Of a stretch of DNA of 64,000 nucleotides, positions 5,272 to 41,138 are shown piece by piece; within the stretch, counting starts at the first letter, position 1; each line of letters opens with the position of its first letter. Under the pieces are notes generated by a model, which saw nothing but the letters and a program-made list of their open reading frames with translations, searched no databases and was not told the DNA's origin. Source of the stretch: a bacterium. Its GTDB lineage: Bacteria; Hydrothermota; Tepidihabitantia; SM23-42; JAOAFX01. The stretch is taken from positions 8,724 through 72,723 of the forward strand of contig JBNAVN010000003.1 of the NCBI GenBank assembly GCA_049700315.1, read 5' to 3'. The translations under genes and the position numbers were made by a program.

Positions 5272-5376
5272 CCTTTTTTGAACTGACCATAATACATTGT
5301 AATTATATTGGTCATTAAGTGAATGTCAATAGCAATGATGGATTGACATTGCTATAAAAAGTACTATAATAAATTG

Positions 5377-5742
5377 ATGCTTCAGCAATTAAATGAATTT
5401 AAATATAATGCAGAGACCGGAAAGAGTTATATTGTATATTTTTTGAAATTCTGGCAGGACAGGAATGATTATATTGTAAAATATCAAATAAGGAGTGAAG
5501 AAAAAGATTTGTTCTGGTTTGGAAGAATTTCAAAAGAACGGGCTTTGATAGATCTGAAAATCACACCTGAAGAAATCAAATCAATTCCTGAGGAAGAAAT
5601 GGCTAAGAAAATAAAAGAACATTTGATGAAGTTGTTTACAGCGGTTATTAAAAAGGGGCTTGATAAGGGATTTGAAGAACCAGACACAGAATTTGTATTT
5701 TATAAAGAACCATTTGTGACAAAAAGAGTCTGGAATGGATGA
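5377..5742 (+). CDS. Hypothetical protein
   Basis: ORF with ATG at 5377, 6 nt after a TATAAT that is preceded by TTGACA at 16 nt spacing. No recognisable domain. Confidence 0.4.
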   Translation: MLQQLNEFKYNAETGKSYIVYFLKFWQDRNDYIVKYQIRSEEKDLFWFGRISKERALIDLKITPEEIKSIPEEEMAKKIKEHLMKLFTAVIKKGLDKGFEEPDTEFVFYKEPFVTKRVWNG

Positions 5743-5759
5743 TGTCTAAGCAAAAAAGC

Positions 5760-6190
5760 AGGGGTTAATTTTCTGACACAACTTTTTATGGCAGATTTGC
5801 GCTTCGTGTTTCGGATTTGAACCGTCAGACAAAACCGTAAAAACGAAAAACGATCTTCAAAGAAGGGTGAAGAAGGGGAAATAAGGGTGAAAAGGGGTGA
5901 AAAGGGGGAATTTTCAATTGGATTTCGGACTGCGAATCGGGTGGTACGCTCTGCTGGGCAAAATGCACTGCGTGCTGTGACAAAACGCTAACGCTGTACT
6001 AAACGCTTCGCTGTAACTGAACGCACTTCGTGCTGGGACTGAAGAGGAACCAATCGTCCATCTAATCCGCCACACTGCATGGCGGATGGACGCTGCAAAA
6101 TCTTTTGAATTTCTCTGTCAGACGAAACCGTAGGCATTTATTTGCAAGGCCAAAGCCTTGCCCTACGATTTCTCCATGAAATTTGTAGGT
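5760..6190. other. ORF-free, GC-richer segment with internal repeats; candidate ncRNA or regulatory region of unknown nature
   Basis: No ORF of 60 aa or more on either strand. By eye, base composition departs from the flanking AT-rich DNA. Direct repeat GTCAGACRAAACCGTA at 5824 and 6118. Purine decamer repeats at 5865-5910. AACGCT/CTTCGTGCTG-type repeats at 5964-6036. Strong hairpin ATCCGCCAcactgcaTGGCGGAT at 6065-6087. Confidence 0.3.
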
Positions 6191-6239
6191 GCGGTGATAA
6201 TAATCCTTGCATTATCAAAAATGTCAGATATAATATCCC

Positions 6240-8678
6240 GTGAAGAAGTTTTTACTACTTGATGCACATTCTTTGATATTCCGTGCCTATTTTGCATTTA
6301 TCAAAAATCCACTCAGGAATTCCAAAGGGCAGAACACCTCAGGAATTTATGGCTTTTTGAATTCAATAAGAAAAATAAAAACAAAATTTGCAAGTGATTA
6401 TATAGTTCTTGCATTTGATGCCCCTGACGAAACCTTCAGAGACAGATTATTCAAAGAATACAAGGCAACCCGTCCAGCCCCACCAAGGGATATCCCATTT
6501 CAGATTGAAAAGGCAAAAGAGATCAGCAAGTTTTTAGGCATGGTAGACTTTGAAATTCCCGGTTTTGAAGCAGATGACATACTTGCAACCCTGACGAAAA
6601 AATTAAAAGATAATGGTGAGGTCTATATCGTGAGTTCTGACAAAGACCTTATGCAACTTATCTCTCAAAATGTCTTTGTTTATGATGCAGTCAATGACAT
6701 AATCTATGATGCAGAAAAGGTGAGAGAAAAATTTGGTGTCCTGCCTGATAGAATTGGAGATTATCTCGCACTCTGCGGTGATTCAATTGACAATGTTCCC
6801 GGTGTTCCTGGCATCGGTCCCCATAGAGCAATAGAAATCCTGAAAAAATATCCGGACCTTAATCAGGCACTGGAAAAAGAACCAAAACTTGCTGAGCACC
6901 GTGAGACCCTGATGTTATCAAGAAAACTCGTGGCACTGGAAACAGATATTCCAATTGAAATAAATCCTGAAGCATTGAAGGCAAAAACCCCGGATGTCAA
7001 AGGTATTTTTGAAATTCTGTCCGAACTTGAATTCCATTCTTTGATAAAAGAATTTGCTGAAAGATATAATACCGAAAGTATAATCAGAAAAACAGATATC
7101 TCAAAGGCAGAAATAAAAAAGTATGCAGGAATCCATGTTGACGAAGACAATTTCTTTGTGAGTTTCAATGAAAATGAAGTCTATGTCGCATCTATAGAAG
7201 ATTCATTCAATATTATTTCCAGACCAGATATAACAAAGATTGGCTACGACCTGAAACAGGTGATAAAAACTGGACATTTGATATCACCTTTATTTGATGT
7301 GAAGATTGCGGTCTGGCTTATTGACCCGAACATAAAGAATAATGAATTTGAAGATATCTGTTTGAAGTATTTGAATTGTTATTGTGCGCCAACACCCGAA
7401 GCAATTTCCACACTTTCTCTAAAGCTCTATCCTATTTTGCAAAAAAAACTTGAGGAACTTAATGAAGTTGATCTCTACCGAGAAATTGAAGAACCCCTCA
7501 TATTTGTCCTTGCGCAAATGGAGAAAAGAGGCATAGGCATTGATGTTAACTACTTGAAAGAATTGAAGAAGCATATTGAAAGGGATATTACGACACTGGC
7601 TGACGAGTGCTACAGGATTGCCGGCAGTGTATTCAATATCAATTCACCAAAGCAACTCGCTCATATTCTGTTTGAAAAACTCAGACTGACACCATTGAAA
7701 AAAGGGAAATCCCACTATTCAACAGATTTTGAAGTGCTCCAGCAATTGAGTTTGAAACATGAATTACCAAAAAAAATCCTTGAATATCGGGAACTGGCAA
7801 AAGTTTCAAGCACCTACATTGACCCTTTGATTGGATTTGCAAGAAACAACAGGATACATACAACCTTCAACCAGACCGGCACGGCTACAGGCAGATTATC
7901 TTCAAACAATCCCAATATCCAGAACATCCCCATCCGCAGTCGCCTGGGTAATGAACTGCGAAAGGCATTTGTAGCACAGAAAGGATTCATGCTTGTTTCA
8001 GCTGATTATTCCCAGATTGAATTGAGAATACTTGCCCATGTCTCAAAAGACAGAAATCTTATTGAAGCATTCAAATCCAGTCGTGATATCCACAATCACA
8101 CTGCCTCATTGATATTTGCTCTTAGCGAAGATGAAGTTGATGACGAAAAAAGGCGCATCGCCAAAGTTGTTAACTATGGGTTAATATATGGAATGAGTGA
8201 CTATGGACTTGCTCAGGAACTCGGAATTTCCGTTGAACAAGCAGGGCAATTCATACAGTCCTATTACGGTTTGTATCCTGAAGTTGATAAATGGCGGCTA
8301 TCAGCAATATCAAGTGTTGAGCAAAAAGGTTATACAGAGACACTCTTCAGCAGAAAAAGACCTATCCCTGAAATAAATTCTGAAAATTATAATCTCAGAG
8401 AATTTGCAAAAAGACTGGCAATCAATACACCAATCCAGGGGACCGCTGCGGATTTGATTAAGATGGCAATGATTGAGGTTGAAAAGAGATTAAACCAGGC
8501 ACATTTCAAAAGTGGACTTCTATTATCAATCCACGATGAGTTGTTGTTTGAAATAGAAGAAGAAAGAACTGATGAAGCAAGAGAAATCATAAAGAAGACA
8601 ATGGAAAATGTCTGTGAGTTCAATGTGCCGATTGTAGTAAATATTAATATCGGAAAAAACTGGGCAGAAGCCCATTGA
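6240..8678 (+). CDS. polA: DNA polymerase I
   Basis: N-terminal 5-prime nuclease domain (LLLDAHSLIFRAYFAF). C-terminal family A polymerase motifs (RRIAKVVNYGLIYG, DYSQIELR). 812 aa. GTG start 5 nt after a TATAAT. Confidence 0.9.
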   Translation: MKKFLLLDAHSLIFRAYFAFIKNPLRNSKGQNTSGIYGFLNSIRKIKTKFASDYIVLAFDAPDETFRDRLFKEYKATRPAPPRDIPFQIEKAKEISKFLGMVDFEIPGFEADDILATLTKKLKDNGEVYIVSSDKDLMQLISQNVFVYDAVNDIIYDAEKVREKFGVLPDRIGDYLALCGDSIDNVPGVPGIGPHRAIEILKKYPDLNQALEKEPKLAEHRETLMLSRKLVALETDIPIEINPEALKAKTPDVKGIFEILSELEFHSLIKEFAERYNTESIIRKTDISKAEIKKYAGIHVDEDNFFVSFNENEVYVASIEDSFNIISRPDITKIGYDLKQVIKTGHLISPLFDVKIAVWLIDPNIKNNEFEDICLKYLNCYCAPTPEAISTLSLKLYPILQKKLEELNEVDLYREIEEPLIFVLAQMEKRGIGIDVNYLKELKKHIERDITTLADECYRIAGSVFNINSPKQLAHILFEKLRLTPLKKGKSHYSTDFEVLQQLSLKHELPKKILEYRELAKVSSTYIDPLIGFARNNRIHTTFNQTGTATGRLSSNNPNIQNIPIRSRLGNELRKAFVAQKGFMLVSADYSQIELRILAHVSKDRNLIEAFKSSRDIHNHTASLIFALSEDEVDDEKRRIAKVVNYGLIYGMSDYGLAQELGISVEQAGQFIQSYYGLYPEVDKWRLSAISSVEQKGYTETLFSRKRPIPEINSENYNLREFAKRLAINTPIQGTAADLIKMAMIEVEKRLNQAHFKSGLLLSIHDELLFEIEEERTDEAREIIKKTMENVCEFNVPIVVNINIGKNWAEAH

Positions 8679-8721
8679 TTATCGCCCATTGATTCTTTGT
8701 CTATTTTGGATATAATAATTT

Positions 8722-8919
8722 GTGATCACCAGAGAAACGAAGGTTGAGAATATTCTCAGAGAATTTCCCGAGAAGATACCTATCTTTGTACAAATGGGTC
8801 TACCCTGCTTTGTCTGCGGTGAACGGTTCTGGGGCACAATTGAAGAATTGTGTCAGAGATATGATATTGAACCAGAAACATTATCAAAAGAATTGAACAG
8901 AATCAATAAAGGGGTGTGA
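8722..8919 (+). CDS. DUF1858-type small redox/disulfide domain protein (hybrid-cluster-protein-associated domain family)
   Basis: 65 aa with GLPCFVCG...ETLEELC core typical of DUF1858. GTG start 5 nt after a TATAAT. Confidence 0.5.
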   Translation: MITRETKVENILREFPEKIPIFVQMGLPCFVCGERFWGTIEELCQRYDIEPETLSKELNRINKGV

Positions 8920-9773
8920 ATATGCAAAAATGGTTATATTGTCCGGTCTGCAGAGGAAGTTTGGTGAAGAAACAATCAGTAATTCTTTGCAAAAAGTGTG
9001 GCTGGCAACATTATAAAAATCCTCTGCCTTCAGTTGCCGGATTTATAATGAATGCTGATGATGAGATATTATTGATCAAACGCGGTGCTGAACCAGAAAA
9101 AGGCAGATGGGCACTACCTTCGGGCTTTATTGAACCCAATGAAACACCAGAGCAGGCAGTATTGAGAGAATTGAAGGAAGAAACTGGGTTGAATGGCACG
9201 ATAAAAAAGATGCTCGGAATTTATGTTGAACCAACAAGGTTCTATGGAGATGTGCTTCTCATTGGTTATGAGATTGAAGGCACCGGTGGCAAGATCAGAC
9301 CCGGCTCAGATACCACAGAAGTCAATTTCTTTTCCAAAAACAAACTGCCAAGAATTCCATTTTTGAGCCATCGCGAAATCATCAATCAGGGAATCAATAG
9401 TCAAACAGATAATGTCTATGTTGAAGTCCTGAAATCAAAGATTTCTGAAGCAGTCATTACTGATACAATTCTCTTTTATAAGGGAAGTATGGGTATAGAT
9501 GCAAAAATTATGCGGTCAGCGCACATTAAGCCCGGAGAAAAGGTGCAGGTTTTAAATTATGATAATGGCGAAAGGCTTGAAACCTATGTTATCCCTGAAA
9601 AACCAGATTCAAGGAAGTTCATCCTTTATGGTCCGGCTTCATTAAAAGGTAAGAAGGGACAGAGATTATGCATACTCTCTTATGCATTTGTTGCCCAGAA
9701 TAAAGCAGAATTTTTTAAGCCGAGGATTGTCATCCTTGATACAAAAAATTTCATCAAAAAAATCAAATCCTAA
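8916..9773 (+). CDS. Fusion protein: zinc-ribbon NUDIX hydrolase (NudC-like) N-terminal domain plus aspartate 1-decarboxylase (PanD) C-terminal domain
   Basis: CPVCRG...CKKCGW zinc ribbon. Nudix box GRWALPSGFIEPNETPEQAVLRELKEETG. C-terminal 110 aa align with PanD, including the Gly-Ser self-processing site (YKGSMGID), NG.R..TY and GPASL regions. One continuous ORF, no internal start for the PanD part. Confidence 0.7.
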   Translation: MNMQKWLYCPVCRGSLVKKQSVILCKKCGWQHYKNPLPSVAGFIMNADDEILLIKRGAEPEKGRWALPSGFIEPNETPEQAVLRELKEETGLNGTIKKMLGIYVEPTRFYGDVLLIGYEIEGTGGKIRPGSDTTEVNFFSKNKLPRIPFLSHREIINQGINSQTDNVYVEVLKSKISEAVITDTILFYKGSMGIDAKIMRSAHIKPGEKVQVLNYDNGERLETYVIPEKPDSRKFILYGPASLKGKKGQRLCILSYAFVAQNKAEFFKPRIVILDTKNFIKKIKS

Positions 9774-11206: not shown

Positions 11207-11209
11207 ATT

Positions 11210-16457: not shown

Positions 16458-17696
16458 CTATTGCTTATACTCTCTTAGCGCAATACCCAGTATCTTCATA
16501 GCACTTCTGATATCTTCTTCTTTAAGCACATAGGCAATTCTCACCTGATTTTTGCCCTTTTTTAGTGTTGAATAGAATCCATTTGCGGGTGCAAGCATCA
16601 CTGTCCTATTCTGGTAATTGAAATCGGTCAAGAGCCACTGACAGAAATGGTCTGCATCTTTCACAGGCAAACTCAGTACCGTATAAAATGCACCTTCTGG
16701 TTTATGTCCATAAACATCAGGAATTTCTTTTAAACATTCAAATAGCAAATTGCGTCGATGCTCATATTCCCTGATCATCGGTGTAATATACTTGTTGATA
16801 TTCTTATATGCGGCAATAGCACCAATCTGCTCTAAGGTTGGAGGGCATAATCGCGCCTGACAGAACCTTATTATTGCATCCATTACCTTTTTATTACGAC
16901 TGATAATACATCCGACCCTGGCACCACAGGCAGAAAACCTTTTTGATATAGAATCCATTAAAATCACACGGTCTTCAATTTCCGGCAGGGACAGAGCACT
17001 GATGTGTGCTTTGCCATCGTAGATAAACTCCCGATATACTTCATCAGAAAGAATGAATAGATTGTGTTTTTTACTCAAACGCTGGAGGATAAACATCTCC
17101 TCTTCAGTAAGCACAGTTCCTGTTGGATTATTTGGTGTATTGATAAGAATTGCCCTCGTCCGATTGGTTATTCTCTTTTCAATCTCTGACTCAGGTGGGA
17201 TATGAAAACCATTTTCAATCTTTGTCTCTATTGCAACCAATTTGATATTAGCCATTACCGAGAAACCATTGTAATTTGTATAATAGGGTTCAAAAATAAT
17301 TATTTCATCTCTTGGGTCGCAAACTGTCATCATGGCAAATATTATTGCCTCACTCCCACCAACCGTAATCCAGATATTGTCCAGATCCAGATCAAAACCA
17401 AGATTTCGGTAATAGTCAAGAATTGCAAGACGTAAATCAAGTATTCCACCTGAAGGACCATAACCAAGAACCTTTTCCTTATGCTGGGTAATCGCCTCAA
17501 ATATCTCCGCAGGCGTCTCAATATCAGGTTGACCAATATTCAGGTGATAAATTTTTATCCCCTTTTTCTTTGCCTCATCAGCAAATGAAGACAGTTTTCT
17601 GATTGGTGAATAGGGCATTTTTCCTGCCCTTCGTGAAAGTATATTTTCTCCTGTTTTATTATTAGCCATAGTGAAATTATATCCAGAAGATTTCAA
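16458..17696 (-). CDS. PLP-dependent aminotransferase, class I/II
   Basis: SPIRKL N-terminal motif. SISKRFSACGARVG with the PLP-binding lysine. About 400 aa. Confidence 0.75.
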   Translation of the reverse strand: MKSSGYNFTMANNKTGENILSRRAGKMPYSPIRKLSSFADEAKKKGIKIYHLNIGQPDIETPAEIFEAITQHKEKVLGYGPSGGILDLRLAILDYYRNLGFDLDLDNIWITVGGSEAIIFAMMTVCDPRDEIIIFEPYYTNYNGFSVMANIKLVAIETKIENGFHIPPESEIEKRITNRTRAILINTPNNPTGTVLTEEEMFILQRLSKKHNLFILSDEVYREFIYDGKAHISALSLPEIEDRVILMDSISKRFSACGARVGCIISRNKKVMDAIIRFCQARLCPPTLEQIGAIAAYKNINKYITPMIREYEHRRNLLFECLKEIPDVYGHKPEGAFYTVLSLPVKDADHFCQWLLTDFNYQNRTVMLAPANGFYSTLKKGKNQVRIAYVLKEEDIRSAMKILGIALREYKQ

Positions 17697-17774
17697 AAGT
17701 CAACCACTATGGGACCTGGTTCCTCCCTCATCAAAGGGTGAGGAAAAGCGGAAAGAAATCTGTTTTTAAGATCA

Positions 17775-17802
17775 TTGACATATGCAGGAATTTTCGTATA
17801 AT
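17775..17802 (+). promoter_or_regulatory. Sigma70-type promoter, TTGACA-N16-TATAAT
   Basis: TTGACA at 17775 and TATAAT at 17797, read directly. Upstream of the PAS-GGDEF gene. Confidence 0.45.
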
Positions 17803-17824
17803 ATGAGTCATTAATGGATTGTCA

Positions 17825-19189
17825 ATGATAGGAAGAAAAAAAACTTCTCAGGCTGAACCAGTTGAAGAAATTGTCAGACTTAGAACCCAAATTAAGAAAC
17901 TACAGGAAAATTTAAGACGTTCTCAGGCAATTATCAAGGCAGTATTTGAAAACTCGCCCGTTGGTATAACCGTACGTTTGGGTTCAGGAAAATTGGTTTC
18001 GTTTAACAAAGCCTGGAAAAAAATCTGGAATTTAACATATCACAAAATCGCTGAGAATGAAAGAAAATCTAAAAACTGGAATGTCCGACAGAGATATCCA
18101 TTTCTCAAGGATGCCATACCAAAAGTTCAACGTATCTTTGACAAGGGCGGGGAGATATTTTTGCCAGAAATTCATGTTGCCAATTCAAAGACCAAATTTG
18201 ATAAATGGATTTCCCAGCATTATTACGCAATAAAAAATAATAAAGGCCGGGTGGAACACATTGTTACCATTACTCAGGATATAACCGAACAGAAGCGCAC
18301 TCTTCTGGCGCTTCAGGAAAGTGAGGCAAAATTCAGAACCATTGTCAACAATGTCAATCTTGGGGTTTATCGTTCTACAGTCAAGCCCCCAGGATATTTT
18401 ATCCAGGTCAATCCTGCATTTGTAAAAATGTTTGGTTACAATTCGATGAAACAGATATTGAAAACTCCCGTAGAAAGATTCTACAAAAATCCAAAAGACC
18501 GTATGGAGTTCGTTAATGAATTAATGTCAAAAGGAGAAGTCAGAGATCGAGAGTTGCTATTAAAAAAATTTGATGGTTCACTGTTCTGGGCTTCAATATA
18601 TGCCAAGGCACATTTTGATGAAAACGGAGATCTTCAGTGGATTGACGGCGTGATTGAAGATATTACTGAACGGAAGAGAATGACTGAGACTTTGCACGCC
18701 CTCTCATTTACTGATGAACTCACCGGATTATACAACCGTCGGGGATTTCTTACTTTGACTGAACATCAAATGAAAATCGCTGATAGGACCAAAAAACCAA
18801 TGTTTCTGCTCTTTGTGGATATGGATAATCTTAAAGATATTAATGATGAATATGGGCATCCTATGGGTGACCAGGCGCTTATTCAGACAACCAGGATTCT
18901 GAAGAAGACATTTCGTGGCTCTGACATCATTGCCCGCATTGGCGGCGATGAATTTGTTGTGTTGACCCTTGAAATGCAAAAGACAAAAGGCGAGGTTTTC
19001 TACAGACGTCTACAAAAAAGTCTGGATATTTTTAACGAATCAGCAAGATTACCTTTTAAGATTGCCCTGAGTGGTGGATGGGCTTATTATGATCCCAAAA
19101 GACCACGCACCATTATCCAGTTGTTAAAACAGGCAGATAGAATGATGTATTTGCATAAGCAAAAGAAGAAACGACTTATTAAGAGTTGA
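17825..19189 (+). CDS. PAS-PAS-GGDEF diguanylate cyclase
   Basis: RIGGDEFVV active site with an RxxD I-site 5 residues upstream. Two PAS-like segments. ATG at 17825 chosen over the upstream TTG. Confidence 0.8.
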   Translation: MIGRKKTSQAEPVEEIVRLRTQIKKLQENLRRSQAIIKAVFENSPVGITVRLGSGKLVSFNKAWKKIWNLTYHKIAENERKSKNWNVRQRYPFLKDAIPKVQRIFDKGGEIFLPEIHVANSKTKFDKWISQHYYAIKNNKGRVEHIVTITQDITEQKRTLLALQESEAKFRTIVNNVNLGVYRSTVKPPGYFIQVNPAFVKMFGYNSMKQILKTPVERFYKNPKDRMEFVNELMSKGEVRDRELLLKKFDGSLFWASIYAKAHFDENGDLQWIDGVIEDITERKRMTETLHALSFTDELTGLYNRRGFLTLTEHQMKIADRTKKPMFLLFVDMDNLKDINDEYGHPMGDQALIQTTRILKKTFRGSDIIARIGGDEFVVLTLEMQKTKGEVFYRRLQKSLDIFNESARLPFKIALSGGWAYYDPKRPRTIIQLLKQADRMMYLHKQKKKRLIKS

Positions 19190-19450
19190 TAGTTCATTAA
19201 GAATTTTGATTAAAGGGAAGTAAGAATGAGATATCTTACGATAATAATAAAAGAAAAATCATATAGAGGTTTGAGTGCCGGGAATTATCTCTTGTTATTC
19301 AGCAGAGGCACATAATACACAGTTAGAAAACTAATTATCTACTGAAGTAACCGTCTCTGGATTACCGGCCTTCACTATCTGGACGCAATGCTGTGTAGTA
19401 AATTCATTGGAATCTTATTGACTTAATATCCTAAATATATATAATCTGCT

Positions 19451-20383
19451 ATGAAAATACTCGTTACTGGTGGTGCTGGTTTTATAGGATCGCACATTGT
19501 TGATGCTTATGTTAAAGATGGTCATACTGTAGTAATCATTGATGACCTTTCAACTGGTGATATTAGAAATCTAAATCCCCGGGCAGAATTCTATAGAGAA
19601 GATATTTGCTCATCAGATATTGAAAAAATATTTGAAAGACATAAATTTGATGTTATTAACCATCATGCAGCACAAATAAATGTGCGTCGTTCACTTGAAG
19701 ACCCATTGTTTGATGCCCGTGTCAATATCACAGGTTCTTTAAATCTTCTCAATTTATCATCAAAATACAATATAAAGAAATTTATCTTCTCCTCAAGTGG
19801 TGGCGCAATCTATGGTGAACCCGAAAGATTCCCGATTACCGAAGATTACCAACCCGCACCACTGTGTCCCTATGGTGTTGCCAAACTTGCAGTAGAACAC
19901 TACATCAAGGTATTCGCGAAATTATACAATTTCAAATATGTTATTCTCCGCTATAGTAATGTTTATGGACCGCGCCAGATTTCCAAAAGTGAAGCAGGTG
20001 TAATATCAATTTTTATTAATCAGATCTTGGAAAAGAAAGAATGCTTTGTGAATGGTGATGGCGAACAAATAAGAGATTATGTGTATGTTGGTGATGTAGT
20101 AAAGGCGAACCTATTGGCTTTAGATGCTGAATCAAACTATTTTAATATTGGTACAGGCATTGAGACAAGCGTGAACAAACTCCTCAATGTGCTGGGACAA
20201 ATATTAAATAAGGCAATACCTCATCAACATCGTGCACCAATACCTGGCGAAGTACTTAAAAATGTTTTGGATTTTTCAAAGGCAAAAAAAACCTTGGGCT
20301 GGGCTCCAGAAATTTCCTTAATAAAAGGCATTGAACTGACATATAATTATTTCCATAATGAAAAACAAGGCAAGATATCTTAA
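19451..20383 (+). CDS. NAD-dependent epimerase/dehydratase (UDP-sugar 4-epimerase-like SDR)
   Basis: VTGGAGFIGSH Rossmann motif, YxxxK catalytic motif (YGVAK). 310 aa. Confidence 0.8.
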   Translation: MKILVTGGAGFIGSHIVDAYVKDGHTVVIIDDLSTGDIRNLNPRAEFYREDICSSDIEKIFERHKFDVINHHAAQINVRRSLEDPLFDARVNITGSLNLLNLSSKYNIKKFIFSSSGGAIYGEPERFPITEDYQPAPLCPYGVAKLAVEHYIKVFAKLYNFKYVILRYSNVYGPRQISKSEAGVISIFINQILEKKECFVNGDGEQIRDYVYVGDVVKANLLALDAESNYFNIGTGIETSVNKLLNVLGQILNKAIPHQHRAPIPGEVLKNVLDFSKAKKTLGWAPEISLIKGIELTYNYFHNEKQGKIS

Positions 20384-24931: not shown

Positions 24932-24959
24932 TTGACAAAAGTAAAAAATGCTTTATAAT
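24932..24959 (+). promoter_or_regulatory. Sigma70-type promoter, TTGACA-N16-TATAAT, 5 nt upstream of the thrS ATG (leaderless arrangement)
   Basis: TTGACA at 24932 and TATAAT at 24954, read directly. ATG at 24965. Confidence 0.45.
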
Positions 24960-24964
24960 TGACT

Positions 24965-26863
24965 ATGTTGAAGATTAAGCTTAATGGCAGCATAATGGAA
25001 GTCCAGGCAGGTAAGAAGATTGCGGATTTAATAACGGATAAGGATTATATTGCGGCTCGGATAAATGGAGAATTGAAAGACCTGAATATACCCATCACCG
25101 AGAACTGCGAAGTAGAATTGATCAAATCCAGTGACCCTGAAGGACAGCAAATCTTCTGGCATTCAACTTCTCATATAATGGCGATGGCAGTAAAGATCCT
25201 GTTCCCTGATGCGAAACTTGCCATAGGTCCTGCAATTGACCAGGGCTTTTACTATGATTTCGACCGTCCGAGTCCATTTTCCACTGAAGACCTTGCAAAA
25301 ATAGAAGAGAAAATGTCTGAGATAATCAAAGAAGATATACCATTTGAACGGATTGTAATGACCAAAGAGGCAGTGATTGAATTTTTTTCGCGCCGCAGTG
25401 AATATTACAAAGTGGAACTGGTCAAAGAAATAAATGATAAAGAAATAAGCCTTTATCGCAATGGAGAATTTGTTGACCTCTGCCGTGGCCCGCATATTCC
25501 AAGGACCGGACTTGTCAAGGCATTCAAACTTCTCAGCGTTGCTGGTGCTTACTGGCGCGGTGATTCAAGATTGCCTATGCTCTCAAGAATATATGGCATA
25601 TCGTTTACCTCAAGTGAACAATTGAAGAATTATCTACACAAACTTGAAGAAGCACAGAAAAGGGACCACCGCAAATTAGGAACTGAACTTGAATTATTTT
25701 CAATTTTTGATGAAGCGGGCGCAGGGTTGGTTTTCTGGCATCCAAAAGGTACGATTGTAAGAAGATTGATTGAAGAATACTGGATCAAACAACATCTGAA
25801 AAATGATTATGAATTGATTGCCACTCCCCACATTGCCCGAAGCAATCTATGGCAAACTTCTGGACACTATGATTTTTACCGGGATAAGATGTTCACTTTA
25901 CCGGTTGAAAATGAAGAATATGTCCTAAAACCTATGAATTGTCCGGGTCATATTCTCATATATAAATCAAAGGTAAGAAGTTATAAAGAACTGCCTATAA
26001 AATATGCAGAACTGGCAACCGTGTATAGAAACGAACTTTCGGGAACCCTGCATGGTTTGCTAAGGGTGAGAGGTTTTACCCAGGATGATGCCCATATCTT
26101 TTGCAGACCTGACCAGATTGAAGAAGAGATTGTAAAAATCCTCCAATTGACCCTGACGATCTTCAAAAAATTCGGCTTTGAAGATTTTCAGGTGAATTTA
26201 TCAGTGCGTGATCCAAAAAATAAAGAGAAGTTTATGGGTTCTGATGAAGAATGGCAAAGGGCAGAGAATGGTTTGATATCTGCATTAAAGAAAGTGAAAT
26301 TGCAATACAAAGTTCAAATAGGAGAGGCAGTATTTTATGGTCCCAAGATTGATATCAATATCCTTGATGCACTGGGTCGTGCATGGCAGGCAACTACGGT
26401 CCAGTTTGATTTCAATCTGCCCAAGCGATTCAGCATTGAATATATGGATGCAAAAGGACAGCACAAAGAGGTTGTGGTTATCCATCGTGCTTTGTACGGT
26501 TCTTTGGAGCGGTTCATAGGAACCCTGATTGAACACTATGCAGGTGCATTTCCTTTCTGGCTTGCGCCGGTCCAGGTGGTGGTAATGCCCATAACGGACA
26601 AGGAAAACACCTATGCCCGGGATGTGTATAATCGGGCTCTGAAACGTGGTTTAAGGGTAGAGTTAAATAGTAAATCTATGAAAATAAACTATCGTATCAG
26701 AGAAGCAGAGGTCAAAAAAATTCCGTACATCCTTGTTGTTGGTCCCAGAGAAGTTGAGAAAAAGACCATTTCTGTAAGAAAAAGGGGACGCGGTGACCTC
26801 GGCGAAATGAAATTGAAAGATTTCTTCAATCTTTGTGATTCAGAACAAGGGGGTGAAGATTAA
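24965..26863 (+). CDS. thrS: Threonine--tRNA ligase
   Basis: TGS N-terminal domain, class II aaRS motifs. Zinc ligands in the catalytic core (CPGH...HRALYGS). About 630 aa. Confidence 0.9.
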   Translation: MLKIKLNGSIMEVQAGKKIADLITDKDYIAARINGELKDLNIPITENCEVELIKSSDPEGQQIFWHSTSHIMAMAVKILFPDAKLAIGPAIDQGFYYDFDRPSPFSTEDLAKIEEKMSEIIKEDIPFERIVMTKEAVIEFFSRRSEYYKVELVKEINDKEISLYRNGEFVDLCRGPHIPRTGLVKAFKLLSVAGAYWRGDSRLPMLSRIYGISFTSSEQLKNYLHKLEEAQKRDHRKLGTELELFSIFDEAGAGLVFWHPKGTIVRRLIEEYWIKQHLKNDYELIATPHIARSNLWQTSGHYDFYRDKMFTLPVENEEYVLKPMNCPGHILIYKSKVRSYKELPIKYAELATVYRNELSGTLHGLLRVRGFTQDDAHIFCRPDQIEEEIVKILQLTLTIFKKFGFEDFQVNLSVRDPKNKEKFMGSDEEWQRAENGLISALKKVKLQYKVQIGEAVFYGPKIDINILDALGRAWQATTVQFDFNLPKRFSIEYMDAKGQHKEVVVIHRALYGSLERFIGTLIEHYAGAFPFWLAPVQVVVMPITDKENTYARDVYNRALKRGLRVELNSKSMKINYRIREAEVKKIPYILVVGPREVEKKTISVRKRGRGDLGEMKLKDFFNLCDSEQGGED

Positions 26864-27674: not shown

Positions 27675-27703
27675 CCTTGACAGAATTTGTGTTATGGTTA
27701 TAA
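27675..27703 (+). promoter_or_regulatory. Sigma70-type promoter, TTGACA-N16-TATAAT, for rplT-pheST
   Basis: ccTTGACAgaatttgtgttatggtTATAATctc, read directly. Confidence 0.45.
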
Positions 27704-27774
27704 TCTCTCGGAATGCCCGAAAACTGAAATTTCAGGCAATCCAGAAAAAGAATTTAAAGAAAGGAGCATGACAG

Positions 27775-31740: not shown

Positions 31741-32037
31741 TTGAAAAAAAGTCAAGCCAACGAAGTTGTGGTCAATATCTTCGGAAATGACTATCGGATA
31801 ACCTCCGAAGATATGGACGAGGAACGAATTAAGAAAATAGCCGAAATTGTGGATAAGAAGATGCGGGATATTCACCGTGAATTTCCCCTGCCATCAACCA
31901 CCAAGATTGCCGTGCTCGCCTGTTTGAATTTGGTTGATGAGTATCTGCAGAAAGAAGAGCATCTTAGCAAGAAAAATTTGGAATTGGAACAAAGAATTAA
32001 TACGTTGATCCTCAAGATTGATGAGGTAATTACTTAA
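31741..32037 (+). CDS. zapA: Cell division protein ZapA
   Basis: VNIFGNDYRI N-terminal motif and C-terminal coiled coil. 98 aa. pheT-zapA linkage is common. Confidence 0.65.
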   Translation: MKKSQANEVVVNIFGNDYRITSEDMDEERIKKIAEIVDKKMRDIHREFPLPSTTKIAVLACLNLVDEYLQKEEHLSKKNLELEQRINTLILKIDEVIT

Positions 32038-32204
32038 TTCGTTCCCTGCGATGCTCGTGATGGGCATTAAGTCTTGAGCCAACACCCATCGTTTGGGAGC
32101 CAAGTTCGGCTACAGGTTTTCCTGTAGTTGACAGGCGCCCACTTTAACCCTGGGTTCAAAGACTTTTTCCCACACGGCATACGCGGGGAACTTTCTAAGA
32201 TTTT

Positions 32205-33801: not shown

Positions 33802-33816
33802 GAAGAACATTGGCTT

Positions 33817-33842
33817 GACTTTTGATTTTTTTTTATTATAAT
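33817..33842 (+). promoter_or_regulatory. Sigma70-type promoter TTGACT-N16/17-TATAAT, 5 nt upstream of the tdh ATG
   Basis: ggcTTGACTtttgatttttttttatTATAATtgcccATG, read directly. Confidence 0.4.
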
Positions 33843-33847
33843 TGCCC

Positions 33848-34885
33848 ATGGCAATGATGAAAGCAGTAGTTAAAACAAAATCTGAACCCGGCGCAGAATT
33901 AATTGATGTACCAATCCCGACACCAGGGCCTGACCAGGTTCTGGTAAAAGTTTTAGCAACTTCAATCTGTGGAACTGATCTCCATATCTTCCAATGGAAT
34001 GAATGGGCACAAAAAAGAATAAAAAGAGTTCCTCAGATTATGGGGCATGAATTATGCGGACAGGTTGTTGAAGTTGGCGCCAATGTCCCGCATATTAAAA
34101 AAGACAGCATTATCTCTGCGGAAACCCATATTGCCTGTGGATATTGTTTTCTCTGTCGGAATGGACTTGGACATATCTGCGAGAATGTAAAGATATTTGG
34201 TGTTGATGTTGATGGGGTATTTGCTGAATATGCAGTTATTCCAGCAACCAATGCCTGGGTCATTGAGGATAAAATACCCAATGATTATGTTTCGGTGATG
34301 GAACCACTGGGCAATGCAATCCACACTGTTCTCGCCGGTGATATTGCTGGCAACACGGTGTTGGTCACTGGTTGCGGCCCGATAGGACTTATGTCTATTG
34401 CGGTCTGCAAAATCTGCGGTGCAACCAAAATAATCGCCACAGAAATAAATGAATTCAGATTGCAAATGGCAAAAAAGATAGGAGCAGACATTGTTTTGAA
34501 CCCAAAGAAAAACAAAATCATTGATTCAATAATGCAAAATACCAATGGTAAAGGCGTAGATGTAGTACTTGAAATGTCGGGCAATCAAACCGCAATTACT
34601 GAAGGATTGAAAAGTCTAAGACCTGGTGGCAGGTATTCTATCTTGGGAATTCCAGACCGACCCCTCAAAATAGACCTTGCAGAAATTGTTTTCAAGTACT
34701 TTACAATTCAGGGAATAAATGGCCGGCTAATGTTTTCAACCTGGTATAAGAGCACAAGATTCCTCGCATCTGGCAGACTTGACCTTGATCCTGTCATCAC
34801 CCATCGGTTGCGCCTGGAAGAATTTCAGAAGGGAATGGAATTGATGGAAAGCGGTAATTGTGGTAAAATTCTTTTATATCCATAA
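33848..34885 (+). CDS. tdh: L-threonine 3-dehydrogenase (zinc-dependent MDR family)
   Basis: Near-collinear similarity to classical TDH: ICGTDLHI, GHELCGQVVEVG, CxxCxxC structural zinc (CGYCFLCRNGLGHIC), TGCGPIGL NAD motif. Confidence 0.85.
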   Translation: MAMMKAVVKTKSEPGAELIDVPIPTPGPDQVLVKVLATSICGTDLHIFQWNEWAQKRIKRVPQIMGHELCGQVVEVGANVPHIKKDSIISAETHIACGYCFLCRNGLGHICENVKIFGVDVDGVFAEYAVIPATNAWVIEDKIPNDYVSVMEPLGNAIHTVLAGDIAGNTVLVTGCGPIGLMSIAVCKICGATKIIATEINEFRLQMAKKIGADIVLNPKKNKIIDSIMQNTNGKGVDVVLEMSGNQTAITEGLKSLRPGGRYSILGIPDRPLKIDLAEIVFKYFTIQGINGRLMFSTWYKSTRFLASGRLDLDPVITHRLRLEEFQKGMELMESGNCGKILLYP

Positions 34886-36997: not shown

Positions 36998-37258
36998 ATG
37001 GCTGAAGATTTGAAAAAAATGATAATTGATTATGTGAAAAAAGAATATCTGGATGAAGATTCAGATCAGGAGATCACAGAGAATACCCCTTTGATCTCCA
37101 GTGGCATTGTTGATTCTTTTTCAATGGTTTCACTGAAGACTTTCTTAGAAAAAAAATTCAACATAAAAATTCCTGATGAAAAAGCAACAACCGATGCATT
37201 TGATAGCGTTAACAATATTATTAAATTGCTTGGCGAATTCGTAAAGCTTGATATCTGA
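36998..37258 (+). CDS. Phosphopantetheine-binding carrier protein (DltC/ACP-like)
   Basis: GIVDSFSMVSL motif with the conserved attachment Ser. 86 aa from the ATG at 36998, which follows AAGGAG. Confidence 0.6.
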   Translation: MAEDLKKMIIDYVKKEYLDEDSDQEITENTPLISSGIVDSFSMVSLKTFLEKKFNIKIPDEKATTDAFDSVNNIIKLLGEFVKLDI

Positions 37259-37276
37259 AAATGAAAAGGAGGCAGT

Positions 37277-38524
37277 ATGGCATTTGATACAAAAACCAGA
37301 GAATTGTTTGCCAGCGAATTGAAAGGAATAAGAGAAAAAGGCTTATTTAAGGAGGAAAGGTATATTACTTCCCCCCAGTCAGCATATATAAAAGTAGAAT
37401 ACCCTGCTGGTTCACCACCAAAGGAAGTTATAAATTTCTGTGCAAATAATTATCTTGGATTGTCAAGCCATCCTGAAGTTGTTAAGGCAGCACACGAAGG
37501 ACTTGAGAATAGAGGTTATGGAATGTCTTCAGTTCGGTTCATCTGTGGAACCCAGGATATCCATCGGGAGCTTGAACGAAAACTTACGGAATTTTTAGGC
37601 ACTGAAGATACGGTTCTATTCCCATCCTGTATGGATGCAAACGCGGGTGTATTTGATGTAGTACTGGATAAAGAAGATGCAATGATTGCAGATCGACTTG
37701 TTCATGCGTCGATTGTTGATGGTATGAAACTGTGCAAAGCCCAGACCTTCAATTACAAACACCTGAATATGGCACACCTGGAAGAGAAACTACAGGAAAC
37801 TCAGAATTGCAGATTCCGAATGATCATTACGGACGGTGTTTTTTCAATGGATGGTGATATTGCACCCCTTGATAAAATCTGTGAGTTGGCAGAAAAATAT
37901 AATGCAATGGTGATGGTTGATGACTCACATGCTACAGGATTTCTTGGTAAGAATGGCAAGGGAACTCATGAGCATTGTGGTGTAGTTGGCAAGATTGATA
38001 TCATTACCACAACCCTTGGCAAAGCAATGGGTGGCGCATCAGGCGGGTGTGTAAGTGGTCGTAAAGAAATTGTTGAGATGTGCCGTCAGCGTGCCCGGCC
38101 TTATCTATTTTCAAATACAATTCCCCCGGTTGTAGTTGCGGCAGCAAACAAGGTGGTTGACCTTATTGCCAGTACAACTGTACTAAGGGACAAATTAGAA
38201 GAGAATACAAAATATTTCAGGGCAAAGATCAAAGAGGCGGGGCTTGATATCAGAGAAGGTGTACATCCAATAGTCCCAATAATGCTTTATAATGCAAAAC
38301 TTGCCCAAGATATGGCACGAGATTTGTATAACGAAGGTATCTATGTCATTGGTTTCTTCTATCCAGTTGTTCCGCAAGGGCAGGCGAGAATAAGAGTTCA
38401 GATTTCGGCAGTCCATGAAAAAGAACACCTTGATAAAGCGATTGAGGCATTTAAGAAGATTGGCGAGAAATATAAAATTCTGGGAAAGAAAAAAGATGAG
38501 ATAATTGCGATGTACGGATTATAG
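37277..38524 (+). CDS. kbl: 2-amino-3-ketobutyrate CoA ligase (glycine C-acetyltransferase)
   Basis: Strong collinear similarity to classical KBL: GLFKEERYITS, VINFCANNYLGL, SSVRFICGTQD, PLP-lysine region TLGKAMGGASGG, GIYVIGFFYPVVPQGQARIRVQ. Confidence 0.85.
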   Translation: MAFDTKTRELFASELKGIREKGLFKEERYITSPQSAYIKVEYPAGSPPKEVINFCANNYLGLSSHPEVVKAAHEGLENRGYGMSSVRFICGTQDIHRELERKLTEFLGTEDTVLFPSCMDANAGVFDVVLDKEDAMIADRLVHASIVDGMKLCKAQTFNYKHLNMAHLEEKLQETQNCRFRMIITDGVFSMDGDIAPLDKICELAEKYNAMVMVDDSHATGFLGKNGKGTHEHCGVVGKIDIITTTLGKAMGGASGGCVSGRKEIVEMCRQRARPYLFSNTIPPVVVAAANKVVDLIASTTVLRDKLEENTKYFRAKIKEAGLDIREGVHPIVPIMLYNAKLAQDMARDLYNEGIYVIGFFYPVVPQGQARIRVQISAVHEKEHLDKAIEAFKKIGEKYKILGKKKDEIIAMYGL

Positions 38525-38710
38525 AAAATGCCTAAAATAATGAGTTCCAAAAATCCAAATCCCAATTACCAGGTAAATTTCAAATTTCCATTACCAGACA
38601 GTCTGAGGTCTGCGGAAAATAGTAACTTGGATGTTAATTATTGCTTAGAATTTAGACATTGAAGATTAAATATTGTTTGTGATTTGGGGCTTGGGATTTG
38701 AGATTTAATC

Positions 38711-39838
38711 ATGAATACTGCTGATGTCATAGTAATTGGTGGTGGTATTATAGGCTGTGCCACAGGTTATTATCTCACAAAAAAAGGTTTAAAGGTATTT
38801 CTTTTTGAAAAAGACTATCTTACTGCAGGGTCTACAGGCAGATGTATTGGCGGAATAAGACAACAATTCTCAACAGAATTGAGTATCAAGGTAGCCATGG
38901 AATCAGTAAAAAAATTCAAAGCAATGAACGATGAATTAGAAACAGATGTGGAATTTGAACAAGATGGCTATTTGTTTCTGGCACACGCTCAGGAAAAAGA
39001 AAAGATCTATAAGAATCTGATTGCATTACAGAAAAAGATGGGCCTGGATGTGGAATATGTTGATGTTCCAACCATAGAAAAAATTGTGCCCGGTATCAAT
39101 ACTGAAGGATTACTTGGTGGTGCCTACTGCCCAAGCGATGCCCAGGCAAATCCATTCTTAGTGGTTGATGCCTATGCAAAAAAGATAAAGCAGAAAGGGA
39201 AAATTTTTACCCATTGTGAAGTGAAAAGTATCAATTTCCAGAAAAACAAGGTTATTTCTATAACTGCAGTCAATAACGAGACCTATTATTCACCAATTGT
39301 AGTAAATGCTACTGGACCATTTATAAGAGAATTTACAAAATCTCTTGGCATTGATATTCCGGTATTTGCTGAGCGTCATGAATCACTCATTACCGAACCA
39401 ATTGAAATATTTTTCAAACCAATGGTAGTTGACTATCGTCCTGATGGTTGCTATTTTCACCAGAAATCAAAACAGGGTAGTATCATTGGATGTTTTACAC
39501 CAGTTCCCAATGTGCCGGGTAATGATATCCGTTCTTCATTTGAATTCATAAAAGAAATGGGAAGAAGGATGGCAAGGTTGATTCCAAAACTTGAGAACAT
39601 TAAAATAATCAGACAGTGGGCGGGCAGTTATGAAATGACTCCGGATGGCAACCCAATATTAGACAGGACTGATATTGAAGGACTATGGATAATCAGCGGT
39701 TTTTGTGGTCATGGTTTTATGCTTGGTCCAGAAATTGGTTTTGTAGCATCTGAATATATCACAAATGGAAAACCACCCTATGATATCAGTGAATTTACCC
39801 TGAAACGAGATTTTTCTCGCCAGGAAGTGATGAAATAA
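38711..39838 (+). CDS. FAD-dependent oxidoreductase (DAO family; glycine/D-amino-acid/sarcosine oxidase-like)
   Basis: VIVIGGGIIGCATGYYL dinucleotide-binding motif. C-terminal GFCGHGFMLGP motif typical of the DAO family. 375 aa. Confidence 0.7.
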   Translation: MNTADVIVIGGGIIGCATGYYLTKKGLKVFLFEKDYLTAGSTGRCIGGIRQQFSTELSIKVAMESVKKFKAMNDELETDVEFEQDGYLFLAHAQEKEKIYKNLIALQKKMGLDVEYVDVPTIEKIVPGINTEGLLGGAYCPSDAQANPFLVVDAYAKKIKQKGKIFTHCEVKSINFQKNKVISITAVNNETYYSPIVVNATGPFIREFTKSLGIDIPVFAERHESLITEPIEIFFKPMVVDYRPDGCYFHQKSKQGSIIGCFTPVPNVPGNDIRSSFEFIKEMGRRMARLIPKLENIKIIRQWAGSYEMTPDGNPILDRTDIEGLWIISGFCGHGFMLGPEIGFVASEYITNGKPPYDISEFTLKRDFSRQEVMK

Positions 39839-40011
39839 ACAAAAAATGCCCATTTAAAAAAGCAAAAGATAGCCCTAGATAAACAAAATACAATAAAATT
39901 TCTAAATCAAAAGTTTGGATTAATGATTGTCAAGATTGCAACCGCTTCATAATTCGCCCCATAAATTCATATTGTTCTTGACAGAGTGAAAATAATATAT
40001 ATTATAACAAT

Positions 40012-41138
<1,127 letters not shown>

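What the first reader, a model, noticed from the sequence alone, without database searches (positions are those of the whole stretch)
5347..40014. Recurrent promoter architecture with TATAAT 5-6 nt before the start codon (leaderless mRNAs)
Seven genes have a -35/-10 pair with 16-17 nt spacing whose -10 hexamer ends 5-6 nt before the annotated start codon, with no Shine-Dalgarno. They are the hypothetical gene at 5377 (TTGACA-16-TATAAT-aaattg-ATG), polA (6207-6242, GTG start), the DUF1858 gene (8689-8724, GTG), the epimerase (19420-19453), thrS (24932-24967), tdh (33817-33850) and tgt (39979-40014). Other genes (pilM, rny, rplT, GYD, mini-ORF) use classical SD-led starts. This implies that leaderless initiation is a common mode in this organism, including GTG starts, which is unusual for leaderless mRNAs.
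Basis: seen in the sequence. Interest (0 to 1): 0.5.

Follow-up and report, generated by a model that had tools for sequence, protein, structure and literature searches.

The report
Leaderless-type promoters in a WOR-3 bacterium
In this uncultured WOR-3 (Caldifarciminota) bacterium about four in ten operons have a near-perfect promoter placed so close to the start codon that the mRNA should begin at that codon with no ribosome-binding leader, a gene-expression mode already well known in mycobacteria and Deinococcus but not yet described for this phylum.

Summary
All seven sites exist at the stated coordinates, and I found two more on the minus strand: an aminotransferase gene (ATG 17669) and thiE/ThiD2 (GTG 50999).

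- **Architecture.** Each site is TTGACA-like, a 16-nt spacer, then TATAAT. The -10 ends 5-6 nt before the first possible ATG or GTG of a real gene. None has a Shine-Dalgarno (SD) sequence.
- **Contrast.** About 25 other genes in the window carry AAGGAG or GGAGGT.
- **Not chance.** There are 18 near-perfect promoters against 1.2 expected. Seven of the 18 have a long-ORF start exactly 5-6 nt downstream, against about 0.3 expected.
- **Conserved.** The layout is kept in WOR-3 relatives for eight of the nine genes, while the sequence upstream of the -35 diverges. Loci from other phyla show no such peak.

The best reading is leaderless mRNAs, with transcription starting at the A or G of the start codon, in roughly 40% of transcription units. 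SD-led genes sit alongside them. This is the known bacterial "group C" pattern of Actinobacteria and Deinococcus-Thermus, so it is a new member of a known kind.

GTG leaderless starts are not unusual; they are established in mycobacteria. No transcription-start data were available, so the transcription start itself is inferred.

Side finding: tgt is interrupted at a conserved run of nine A, which is probably a programmed frameshift or transcriptional slippage site.

The parts
5343..5379 (+). TTGACA-16-TATAAT-aaattg-ATG. Leaderless-type promoter and start of a 121-aa hypothetical protein.
   Evidence: The orthologue in L031 (75% aa identity) keeps TTGACT-16-TATAAT with 7 nt before ATG. No Pfam hit.
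6207..6242 (+). TTGCAT-16-TATAAT-atccc-GTG. Leaderless-type promoter and GTG start of polA.
   Evidence: GTG is the first NTG after the in-frame stop. The Pfam 5'-3' exonuclease domain starts at residue 3. L030 and L031 keep -10 / 5 nt / GTG; L034 (57% identity) has TATAAT / 5 nt / ATG.
8689..8724 (+). TTGATT-16-TATAAT-aattt-GTG. Leaderless-type promoter and GTG start of a 65-aa DUF1858 protein.
   Evidence: DUF1858 profile position 1 aligns to residue 2. L004 keeps TTGATA-16-TATAAT / 5 nt / GTG.
17667..17703 (-). TTGACT-16-TATAAT-ttcact-ATG. Leaderless-type start of a class I/II aminotransferase, the first gene of a minus-strand operon of about seven genes.
   Evidence: Conserved in L001 and L008 with d = 6.
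19418..19453 (+). TTGACT-16-TATAAT-ctgct-ATG. Leaderless-type start of an NAD-dependent epimerase/dehydratase.
   Evidence: This ATG is the only start before codon 77, and the Rossmann motif begins at residue 7. Conserved in L001 and L008.
24932..24967 (+). TTGACA-16-TATAAT-tgact-ATG. Leaderless-type start of thrS.
   Evidence: All 10 WOR-3 orthologues keep TTGACA-16-TATAAT, with 5, 6 or 7 nt before ATG, while the sequence upstream of the -35 diverges.
33815..33850 (+). TTGACT-16-TATAAT-tgccc-ATG. Leaderless-type start of tdh (zinc-dependent threonine/alcohol dehydrogenase family).
   Evidence: Five of five close orthologues keep the promoter, d = 5 and the first ATG. In distant WOR-3 genomes the gene is leadered: d = 12, and d = 17 with GGAG.
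39978..40014 (+). TTGACA-16-TATTAT-aacaat-ATG. Leaderless-type start of tgt.
   Evidence: L036, L037, L038 and L039 keep TTGACA-16-TATTAT or TATGAT with 5-6 nt before ATG.
50997..51032 (-). TTGACA-16-TATAAT-ttatt-GTG. Leaderless-type start of a ThiD2-ThiE fusion gene.
   Evidence: A 12/12 promoter match. GTG is the first NTG after the stop, and the next NTG is 40 codons downstream with no SD. Not checked in relatives (one search found no record).
59613..59652 (-). TTGACA-16-TATAAT-ataaaatat-ATG. Near-leaderless candidate with an expected leader of 2-3 nt and no SD, before a ferredoxin-like ORF of about 67 aa.
   Evidence: Read from the sequence; not tested further.

Best explanation
These are sigma-70-type housekeeping promoters placed so that RNA polymerase starts transcription at, or within a base of, the A or G of the start codon. 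The -10 hexamer ends 5-7 nt upstream, which puts the start codon at positions 6-8 downstream of the -10. The resulting mRNAs have no 5' leader and no Shine-Dalgarno sequence. They are presumably bound through their 5'-terminal AUG or GUG by ribosomes carrying initiator tRNA, as shown for leaderless mRNAs in other bacteria.

In this WOR-3 lineage that mode serves roughly 9 of about 22 transcription units in the window. Operon-internal genes and the remaining first genes use canonical AAGGAG-type SD sites.

Shown here: promoter motifs, spacing, absence of SD, correctness of the start codons, conservation, and lineage-specific enrichment.
Inferred: the actual transcription start and the mode of ribosome recruitment.
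For: 1. Strong promoters are enriched about 15-fold over shuffles (18 against 1.18). Eleven are perfect 12/12 matches.
2. The distance from the -10 to the first long-ORF start is bimodal. In the window, 7 of 18 strong promoters have d = 5-6. In the ten thrS-based WOR-3 relatives, 36 of 56 have d = 5-7; the rest have d = 15-22 or 54-72.
3. In a looser all-starts tally, loci from other phyla (312 kb) show no peak: 2 hits at d = 5-7 against about 1 per offset. The twelve WOR-3 relatives in that tally give 40 against 1.9 per offset.
4. The nine candidates have no SD, and about 25 other genes have strong SD sites.
5. Start codons are right:
   - Pfam domains begin at residues 1-3 for polA, DUF1858 and the epimerase. 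ThiD2 begins at residue 6 and TGT at residue 12.
   - An in-frame stop lies 2-10 codons upstream of every start. In the d = 5 cases it is the TAA inside TATAAT.
   - In six of the nine the proposed codon is the first NTG after that stop; in hyp5377, thrS and tdh a TTG lies 1-2 codons further upstream, inside or next to the -10.
   - Alternative starts are far downstream (epimerase, thiE, DUF1858) or, like polA's (11 codons), still lack an SD.
6. Orthologues keep the -35, the 16-nt spacer, the -10 and a 5-7 nt gap while upstream DNA diverges. The counts are thrS 10/10, tdh 5/5, tgt 4/4, polA 3/3, epimerase 2/2, aminotransferase 2/2, DUF1858 1/1 and hyp 1/1. Small indels move the gap only within 5-7 nt.
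7. About 24 distinct gene families show the pattern in roughly 300 kb of WOR-3 DNA. All use ATG or GTG, never TTG. The base before the start is a pyrimidine in 22 of 25. This fits a pyrimidine(-1)/purine(+1) transcription start and the RTG-only rule for leaderless translation (PMC4633059).
8. The layout matches described leaderless genomes: a Pribnow box 6-8 nt from the start and 25-50% of operons (GeneMarkS-2 preprint 10.1101/193490), and 6-7 bp in Deinococcus (PMC12340547).
Against: - There is no experimental transcription-start or N-terminal data for this organism or its relatives.
- With d = 5, the commonest case in the window (6 of 9), the A or G of the start codon is only the 6th base after the -10. 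From memory of E. coli TSS-selection studies, position 7 is preferred there. A start one or two bases further on would destroy the start codon.
- Several of these genes sit 43-47 nt behind an upstream gene with no recognisable terminator (rny to tdh; polA to DUF1858; one search found terminator-like sites only at background rate). Read-through transcripts with an internal start lacking an SD may therefore also exist.
- The -35 of polA (3/6) and of DUF1858 (4/6) is weak.
- The first 30 nt of the predicted mRNAs are not significantly less structured than controls (p = 0.11).
Confidence: 0.8

Rival explanations
1. Near-leaderless rather than strictly leaderless. The promoters are real, but transcription starts 1-3 nt away from the start codon. 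That would give tiny leaders. In d = 5 cases it could instead give transcripts that lack the first base, so only part of the transcripts would be translatable from the annotated codon.
For: - d = 5 puts the start codon one base closer to the -10 than the canonical optimum.
- d varies from 5 to 7 among thrS orthologues.
- Other strong promoters in the window have d = 9 and d = 13 with no SD.
Against: - The distribution is sharply confined to d = 5-7.
- A pyrimidine at -1 and a purine at +1 in 22 of 25 families favours initiation exactly at the start codon.
- In mycobacteria RTG is strongly enriched at +1 itself (PMC4633059).
Confidence: 0.1
2. Mis-called starts. The promoters are real, but translation begins at a downstream in-frame codon, so the supposed first codons are really a 5' leader.
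For: tdh begins M-A-M-M-K, and the fourth codon (ATG) is also conserved and aligns with the usual MKA start of Tdh.
Against: - Pfam profiles start at residues 1-3 of the proposed proteins.
- The next candidate starts are 11-77 codons downstream and have no SD.
- The first codons vary mostly at third positions among orthologues.
- The first ATG of tdh is conserved in 5 of 5 relatives.
Confidence: 0.04
3. Not promoters. The TATAAT boxes would be AT-rich, non-SD translation enhancers on longer leadered or read-through transcripts (the Bacteroidota-like "group B" pattern), or simply AT-rich background.
For: - The genome is AT-rich (GC about 38%).
- Loose promoter matches (at least 9/12) occur at background frequency (77 against 65).
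- Some candidates lie close behind upstream genes without terminators.
Against: - Each -10 is accompanied by a TTGAC-type -35 at exactly 16 nt, and this is conserved in orthologues.
- The same TTGACA-16-TATAAT module also sits 15-72 nt upstream of SD-led genes, where it cannot be a ribosome site.
- Enrichment over shuffles is about 15-fold.
- The organism uses canonical SD sites elsewhere.
Confidence: 0.04

Closest known systems
Bacterial leaderless gene expression as in Mycobacterium and other Actinobacteria (GeneMarkS-2 "group C" genomes; Shell et al. 2015, PMC4633059)
   Same: - The -10 box lies a few nt upstream of the start codon of first-in-operon genes, with no SD.
- Only ATG and GTG starts are used.
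- About a quarter to a half of operons are affected.
- SD-led genes coexist in the same genome.
   Different: - Here the promoters carry a near-perfect TTGACA -35 at a fixed 16-nt spacing and a full TATAAT. By my recollection, not checked here, mycobacterial promoters show only TANNNT and little -35.
- The genome is AT-rich and from a different phylum (WOR-3 / Caldifarciminota).
- The gap peaks at 5-6 nt rather than 6-8.
- Transcription starts are unmeasured here.
-10 motif adjacent to ORFs in Deinococcus-Thermus (PMC12340547; de Groot et al. 2014, as cited in that paper)
   Same: - A -10 motif 6-7 bp before the ORF drives leaderless mRNAs for about 30% of genes.
- GTG starts occur.
- Adding a properly spaced -35 boosts expression.
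- The lineage contains thermophiles.
   Different: - The Deinococcus motif is a degenerate TANNNT (most often TACACT), usually without a -35. Here both hexamers are at or near consensus.
- The -35 spacing that was effective in Deinococcus was 17 bp; here it is 16.
Phage lambda cI mRNA from the P_RM promoter, the classic E. coli leaderless mRNA (from memory)
   Same: The transcript starts at the A of the AUG and is translated without an SD.
   Different: This is a rare exception in E. coli and, as I recall, depends on AUG. Here it is a genome-wide mode that includes GUG.

Membership tests
Bacterial leaderless mRNA genes | The transcription start coincides with the first base of the start codon, or lies at most a few nt upstream. 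| not testable with these tools
   No TSS data. The proxy is met: the -10 hexamer ends 5-7 nt upstream of the start codon in all nine cases.
Bacterial leaderless mRNA genes | No Shine-Dalgarno sequence upstream of the start codon. | tested here: met
   None of the nine has an SD-like match of at least 4 nt within 3-12 nt of the start. About 25 other genes have 5-6 nt matches.
Bacterial leaderless mRNA genes | The 5'-terminal start codon is AUG or GUG, not UUG or others. | tested here: met
   Six ATG and three GTG in the window. All of about 24 families in WOR-3 DNA use ATG or GTG, with no TTG. The rule is from PMC4633059.
Bacterial leaderless mRNA genes | The codon next to the promoter is the true translation start. 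| tested here: met
   Pfam domains begin at residues 1-3 for polA, DUF1858 and the epimerase, at residue 6 for ThiD2 and residue 12 for TGT. In-frame stops lie 2-10 codons upstream and downstream alternative starts have no SD. The start codon is conserved in orthologues. No proteomic proof.
GeneMarkS-2 group C genome (frequent bacterial leaderless transcription) | Dual pattern: a promoter box about 6-8 nt from first-in-operon starts in 25-50% of operons, and RBS motifs for the other genes. | tested here: met
   Nine of about 22 transcription units in the window. Bimodal distance distribution in relatives. Absent in control loci from other phyla. Tested on about 300 kb, not whole genomes, and GeneMarkS-2 itself was not run.
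Non-SD leadered initiation (group B, Bacteroidota-type) | An AT-rich non-SD motif close to the start on leadered mRNAs; the genome largely lacks SD sites. | tested here: not met
   Canonical AAGGAG or GGAGGT precedes about 25 genes. The motif near the starts is a full promoter with a -35 at 16 nt.

The most novel reading that the evidence does not exclude
WOR-3 / Caldifarciminota would be a further bacterial phylum in which leaderless initiation is a major, selectively maintained mode, covering about 40% of transcription units. It would be driven by unusually consensus-like sigma-70 promoters with compact geometry: a 16-nt spacer and a start codon only 5-6 nt after the -10. That is one base shorter than the E. 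coli optimum at both steps. It hints at lineage-specific RNA polymerase/sigma spacing and at transcription starting 6 nt after the -10.
Probability: 0.6. Interest if true: 0.4.

Novelty: new member of a known kind. Interest (0 to 1): 0.3.

Why it matters
- **Gene calling.** Gene finders that expect an SD mis-place starts in leaderless-rich genomes. Knowing that WOR-3 genomes follow the dual promoter/RBS pattern would improve start-codon and promoter annotation for a phylum known almost only from MAGs.
- **Phylogenetic spread.** It adds a deep-branching lineage to the list of bacteria with frequent leaderless genes. Close relatives are MAGs labelled WOR-3, and the phylum includes hot-spring and hydrothermal members (PMC12542636, PMC12285271). 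That list bears on whether leaderless initiation is ancestral or linked to lifestyle.
- **Prediction in uncultured organisms.** Promoters here are so close to consensus that promoter-based prediction of transcription units is unusually reliable.
- **Limit.** It does not reveal a new mechanism.

Tried and rejected
- **Loose promoter thresholds.** Matches of at least 9/12 occur at background frequency (77 against 65.3 in shuffles). Only near-consensus matches were used as evidence.
- **Terminators.** The scan between adjacent genes gave background counts (14 against 14.1), so independent transcription of tdh and DUF1858 from their upstream neighbours could not be shown.
- **RNA genes.** Rfam and tRNA scans found only 6S RNA and no RNA element at the sites.
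- **thiE orthologues.** An exact-sequence look-up of the ThiD2-ThiE protein found no record, so thiE was not checked in relatives.
- **5' structure.** The test for weaker 5' structure in leaderless candidates was not significant (mean -1.94 against -2.49 kcal/mol, p = 0.11).
- **Literature.** No paper holds both "leaderless" and "WOR-3".
- **A correction of my own.** I first read the thrS spacing as a constant 5 nt in all relatives. Exact counting showed 5, 6 or 7 nt.
- **Rejected: repeat or mobile element.** The spacers and flanks differ between sites.
Full report
**1. Observation**

Reading the seven sites confirms each one. A TTGACA-like hexamer is followed by a 16-nt spacer and a TATAAT box (TATTAT for tgt). 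Then come 5 or 6 nt and an ATG or GTG that opens a long ORF. Below, d means the number of bases between the end of the -10 hexamer and the start codon.

- an aminotransferase gene: TTGACT-16-TATAAT-ttcact-ATG 17669
- a ThiD2-ThiE fusion gene: TTGACA-16-TATAAT-ttatt-GTG 50999

- The spacer is 16 nt at all seven sites, not 16-17.
- The -35 of polA (TTGCAT) and of DUF1858 (TTGATT) is weak.

**2. Is it more than chance?**

- TTGACA-N16-TATAAT with at most one mismatch occurs 18 times in the 64-kb window, against 1.18 in dinucleotide-preserving shuffles. Eleven of these are perfect 12/12 matches.
- Seven of the 18 have an NTG opening a long ORF exactly 5-6 nt after the -10. The density of such NTGs is 0.0093 per nt, so about 0.34 are expected.
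- Starting from the genes instead, 8 of 57 have a perfect TATAAT ending 5-7 nt before a candidate start. Local shuffles give 0.45, with a maximum of 4 in 2000 shuffles.
- Loose promoter matches (at least 9/12) are at background level, 77 against 65. Only near-consensus sites therefore count as evidence.

**3. Are the start codons right?**

- Pfam domains begin at residues 1-3 of the proposed proteins for polA, DUF1858 and the epimerase. ThiD2 begins at residue 6 and TGT at residue 12.
- Every proposed start has an in-frame stop 2-10 codons upstream. With d = 5 the TAA inside TATAAT is itself that in-frame stop.
- In six of the nine genes the proposed codon is the first NTG after that stop. In the hypothetical gene, thrS and tdh a TTG lies 1-2 codons further upstream, inside or beside the -10; in the aminotransferase gene a TTG lies 9 codons upstream, ahead of the -10.
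- The next candidate starts lie 11-77 codons downstream and have no SD.
- None of the nine has an SD. About 25 other genes carry AAGGAG, AGGAGG or GGAGGT 3-12 nt from the start.

**4. Organism and comparative evidence**

The thrS protein is 81-94% identical to that of ten MAGs labelled candidate division WOR-3. NCBI now calls this phylum Caldifarciminota.

| Gene | Relatives keeping the layout | Gap (d) |
|---|---|---|
| thrS | 10 of 10 | 5, 6 or 7 |
| tdh | 5 of 5 | 5 |
| tgt | 4 of 4 | 5-6 |
| polA | 2 with GTG; 1 more distant (57% identity, GC 50%) with ATG | 5 |
| epimerase | 2 of 2 | 5 |
| aminotransferase | 2 of 2 | 6 |
| DUF1858 | 1 of 1, GTG kept | 5 |
| hypothetical gene | 1 of 1 | 7 |

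In thrS the sequence upstream of the -35 is unalignable across relatives, while the -35, the 16-nt spacer length and the -10 are kept.

Wider sampling gives the same picture:
- In the ten thrS-based relatives, 56 strong promoters were found. The first long-ORF start lies at d = 5 (12 promoters), d = 6 (18) or d = 7 (6). The rest lie at d = 15-22 or 54-72.
- A looser tally that counts every start within 60 nt gives a negative control. Over 312 kb from other phyla fetched in the same searches there are 2 hits at d = 5-7, against about 1 per offset. The twelve WOR-3 relatives in that tally give 40 against 1.9 per offset.
- About 24 distinct gene families show the pattern in roughly 300 kb of WOR-3 DNA. 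All use ATG or GTG, none uses TTG, and the base before the start is a pyrimidine in 22 of 25.
- More distant WOR-3 genomes (Tgt about 60% identical, GC 43-46%) keep the same promoter type and have some leaderless-type genes, such as obg with d = 7. There tdh has a short leader (d = 12, or d = 17 with GGAG) and tgt is operon-internal. Individual genes therefore switch between the two modes within the phylum.

**5. Mechanism**

The best explanation is leaderless mRNA. RNA polymerase holoenzyme binds a near-consensus promoter and starts at the purine of the start codon, 6-8 bases after the -10. The transcript has no leader. Ribosomes presumably engage the 5'-terminal AUG or GUG directly, as established in other bacteria (PMC4633059; review PMC9031893, listed).

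What is shown here:
- the motifs and their geometry
- the absence of SD
- the correctness of the start codons
- conservation in relatives
- lineage-specific enrichment

What is inferred is the transcription start and the mode of ribosome recruitment.

Caveats:
- d = 5 is the commonest gap in the window. It puts the start one base closer to the -10 than the optimum I recall for E. coli.
- tdh and DUF1858 lie 43-47 nt behind upstream genes with no detectable terminator. Read-through transcripts may coexist.
- The 5' ends are AT-richer (GC 32% against 41%) but not significantly less structured than controls (p = 0.11).

**6. Comparison with what is known**

- This is the dual pattern that GeneMarkS-2 calls group C. 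The Pribnow box lies 6-8 nt from first-in-operon starts, 25-50% of operons are leaderless, and the group is frequent in Actinobacteria and Deinococcus-Thermus (10.1101/193490).
- A 2025 study showed experimentally in Deinococcus that a -10 motif 6-7 bp before ORFs acts as the promoter of leaderless genes. It includes corrected GTG starts (PMC12340547).
- In mycobacteria any mRNA beginning with AUG or GUG, but no other codon, is translated leaderlessly (PMC4633059). GTG is therefore not unusual outside E. coli.

Two things differ here. The first is the phylum: no paper in the library holds both "leaderless" and "WOR-3". The second is promoter quality: full TTGACA and TATAAT hexamers with a nearly invariant 16-nt spacer. 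Near-perfect matches use a 16-nt spacer 56 times, against 2, 2 and 3 times for 15, 17 and 18 nt.

**7. Verdict**

This is a new member of a known kind and of modest interest.

**Side findings**

*tgt is interrupted at a conserved run of nine A.*
- It is split into two ORFs in different frames at window 40530-40538.
- The same A9 run sits at the same codon in three other genomes, down to 61% identity, and their flanking sequence has diverged. Intact relatives have no A-run there.
- Adding one A restores a 375-aa Tgt.
- The codons between the run and the first NTG of ORF2 encode conserved Tgt residues in the -1 frame.
- Most of the closest homologue clusters are half-length.
- This points to programmed -1 frameshifting (A_AAA_AAA) or transcriptional slippage rather than a pseudogene or an independently translated second subunit.
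- No paper was found that links slippage and Tgt.

*Other items.* 6S RNA lies at 32040-32193. An SD-led lysine-rich 18-codon ORF and a csp gene with a leader of about 70 nt are each driven by a perfect promoter. A leaderless-type 25-codon upstream ORF starts at 63935 on the minus strand.

Noticed in passing
window 40012-41138 (+); A-run at 40530-40538; also L036, L037, L041: tgt is split into two ORFs, the second in the -1 frame, at a run of exactly nine A. The same A9 run sits at the same codon in three other WOR-3 genomes (78%, 72% and 61% aa identity) with diverged flanks. Intact relatives (L038-L040, L042) have no A-run there. One extra A restores a 375-aa Tgt, and the conserved ...FAIIQGATF... 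residues are encoded in the -1 frame directly after the run. About 81 of the top 120 homologue clusters are half-length. This is probably programmed -1 ribosomal frameshifting or transcriptional slippage, and it looks undescribed for tgt.
   Followed up: partly
whole window, e.g. 5302-5370, 17775-17825, 27677-27704, 41135-41162, 52727-52754(-), 52893-52920(-), 53044-53071, 59625-59691: Promoters are extraordinarily close to consensus. There are 11 perfect TTGACA-N16-TATAAT matches in 64 kb. The spacer is almost always 16 nt, not 17: in relatives, near-perfect matches use 16 nt 56 times, against 2, 2 and 3 for 15, 17 and 18 nt. Several are back-to-back divergent pairs (5302-5370, 59625-59691). 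One pair has overlapping -10 boxes on opposite strands (17775-17825).
   Followed up: partly
window 52814-52870 (-), promoter 52893-52920 (-), terminator about 52771-52800: A perfect promoter, an AGGAGG SD and an 18-codon ORF (MPKCKAKKTKKKGKKKKK) followed by a strong hairpin and T-run terminator. This looks like a stand-alone tiny lysine-rich protein gene of unknown role.
   Followed up: no
window 52444-52656 (-), promoter 52727-52754 (-): A cold-shock-protein (Csp) gene with a TTG start, an AGGAGG SD and a 5' leader of about 70 nt, driven by a perfect promoter. The mechanical ORF list shows a spurious 124-aa ORF on the opposite strand instead.
   Followed up: no
window 63859-63969 (-): TTGACT-17-TATAAT-gaaat-ATG opens only a 25-codon ORF (MNCISLIAEIMKIWHRLSSILIFKG). 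It ends just before the SD-led ATG 63854 of the next gene. This may be a leaderless upstream ORF of the kind described in mycobacteria, or simply an 80-nt leader.
   Followed up: no
window 32040-32193 (+): 6S RNA (Rfam RF00013, 80.4 bits) lies directly after a small SD-led ORF (31741-32037) and before rny. Its 3' part overlaps the mechanically listed TTG start of the rny ORF; the SD-led ATG 32248 is the likelier rny start.
   Followed up: no
L041 about 6443-6495 and L042 about 3922-3970, compared with window 33815-33850: tdh is leaderless-type in the window's clade. In more distant WOR-3 genomes it has a short leader (d = 12, and d = 17 with GGAG), so genes switch between leaderless and SD-led starts within the phylum.
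   Followed up: partly
window 17803-17827 (+) and 59692-59707 (+): Two strong promoters are followed by short leaders with no recognisable SD. The leaders would be about 16 nt before ATG 17825 and about 6-7 nt before ATG 59705. This would be a third class, short-leader non-SD.
   Followed up: no
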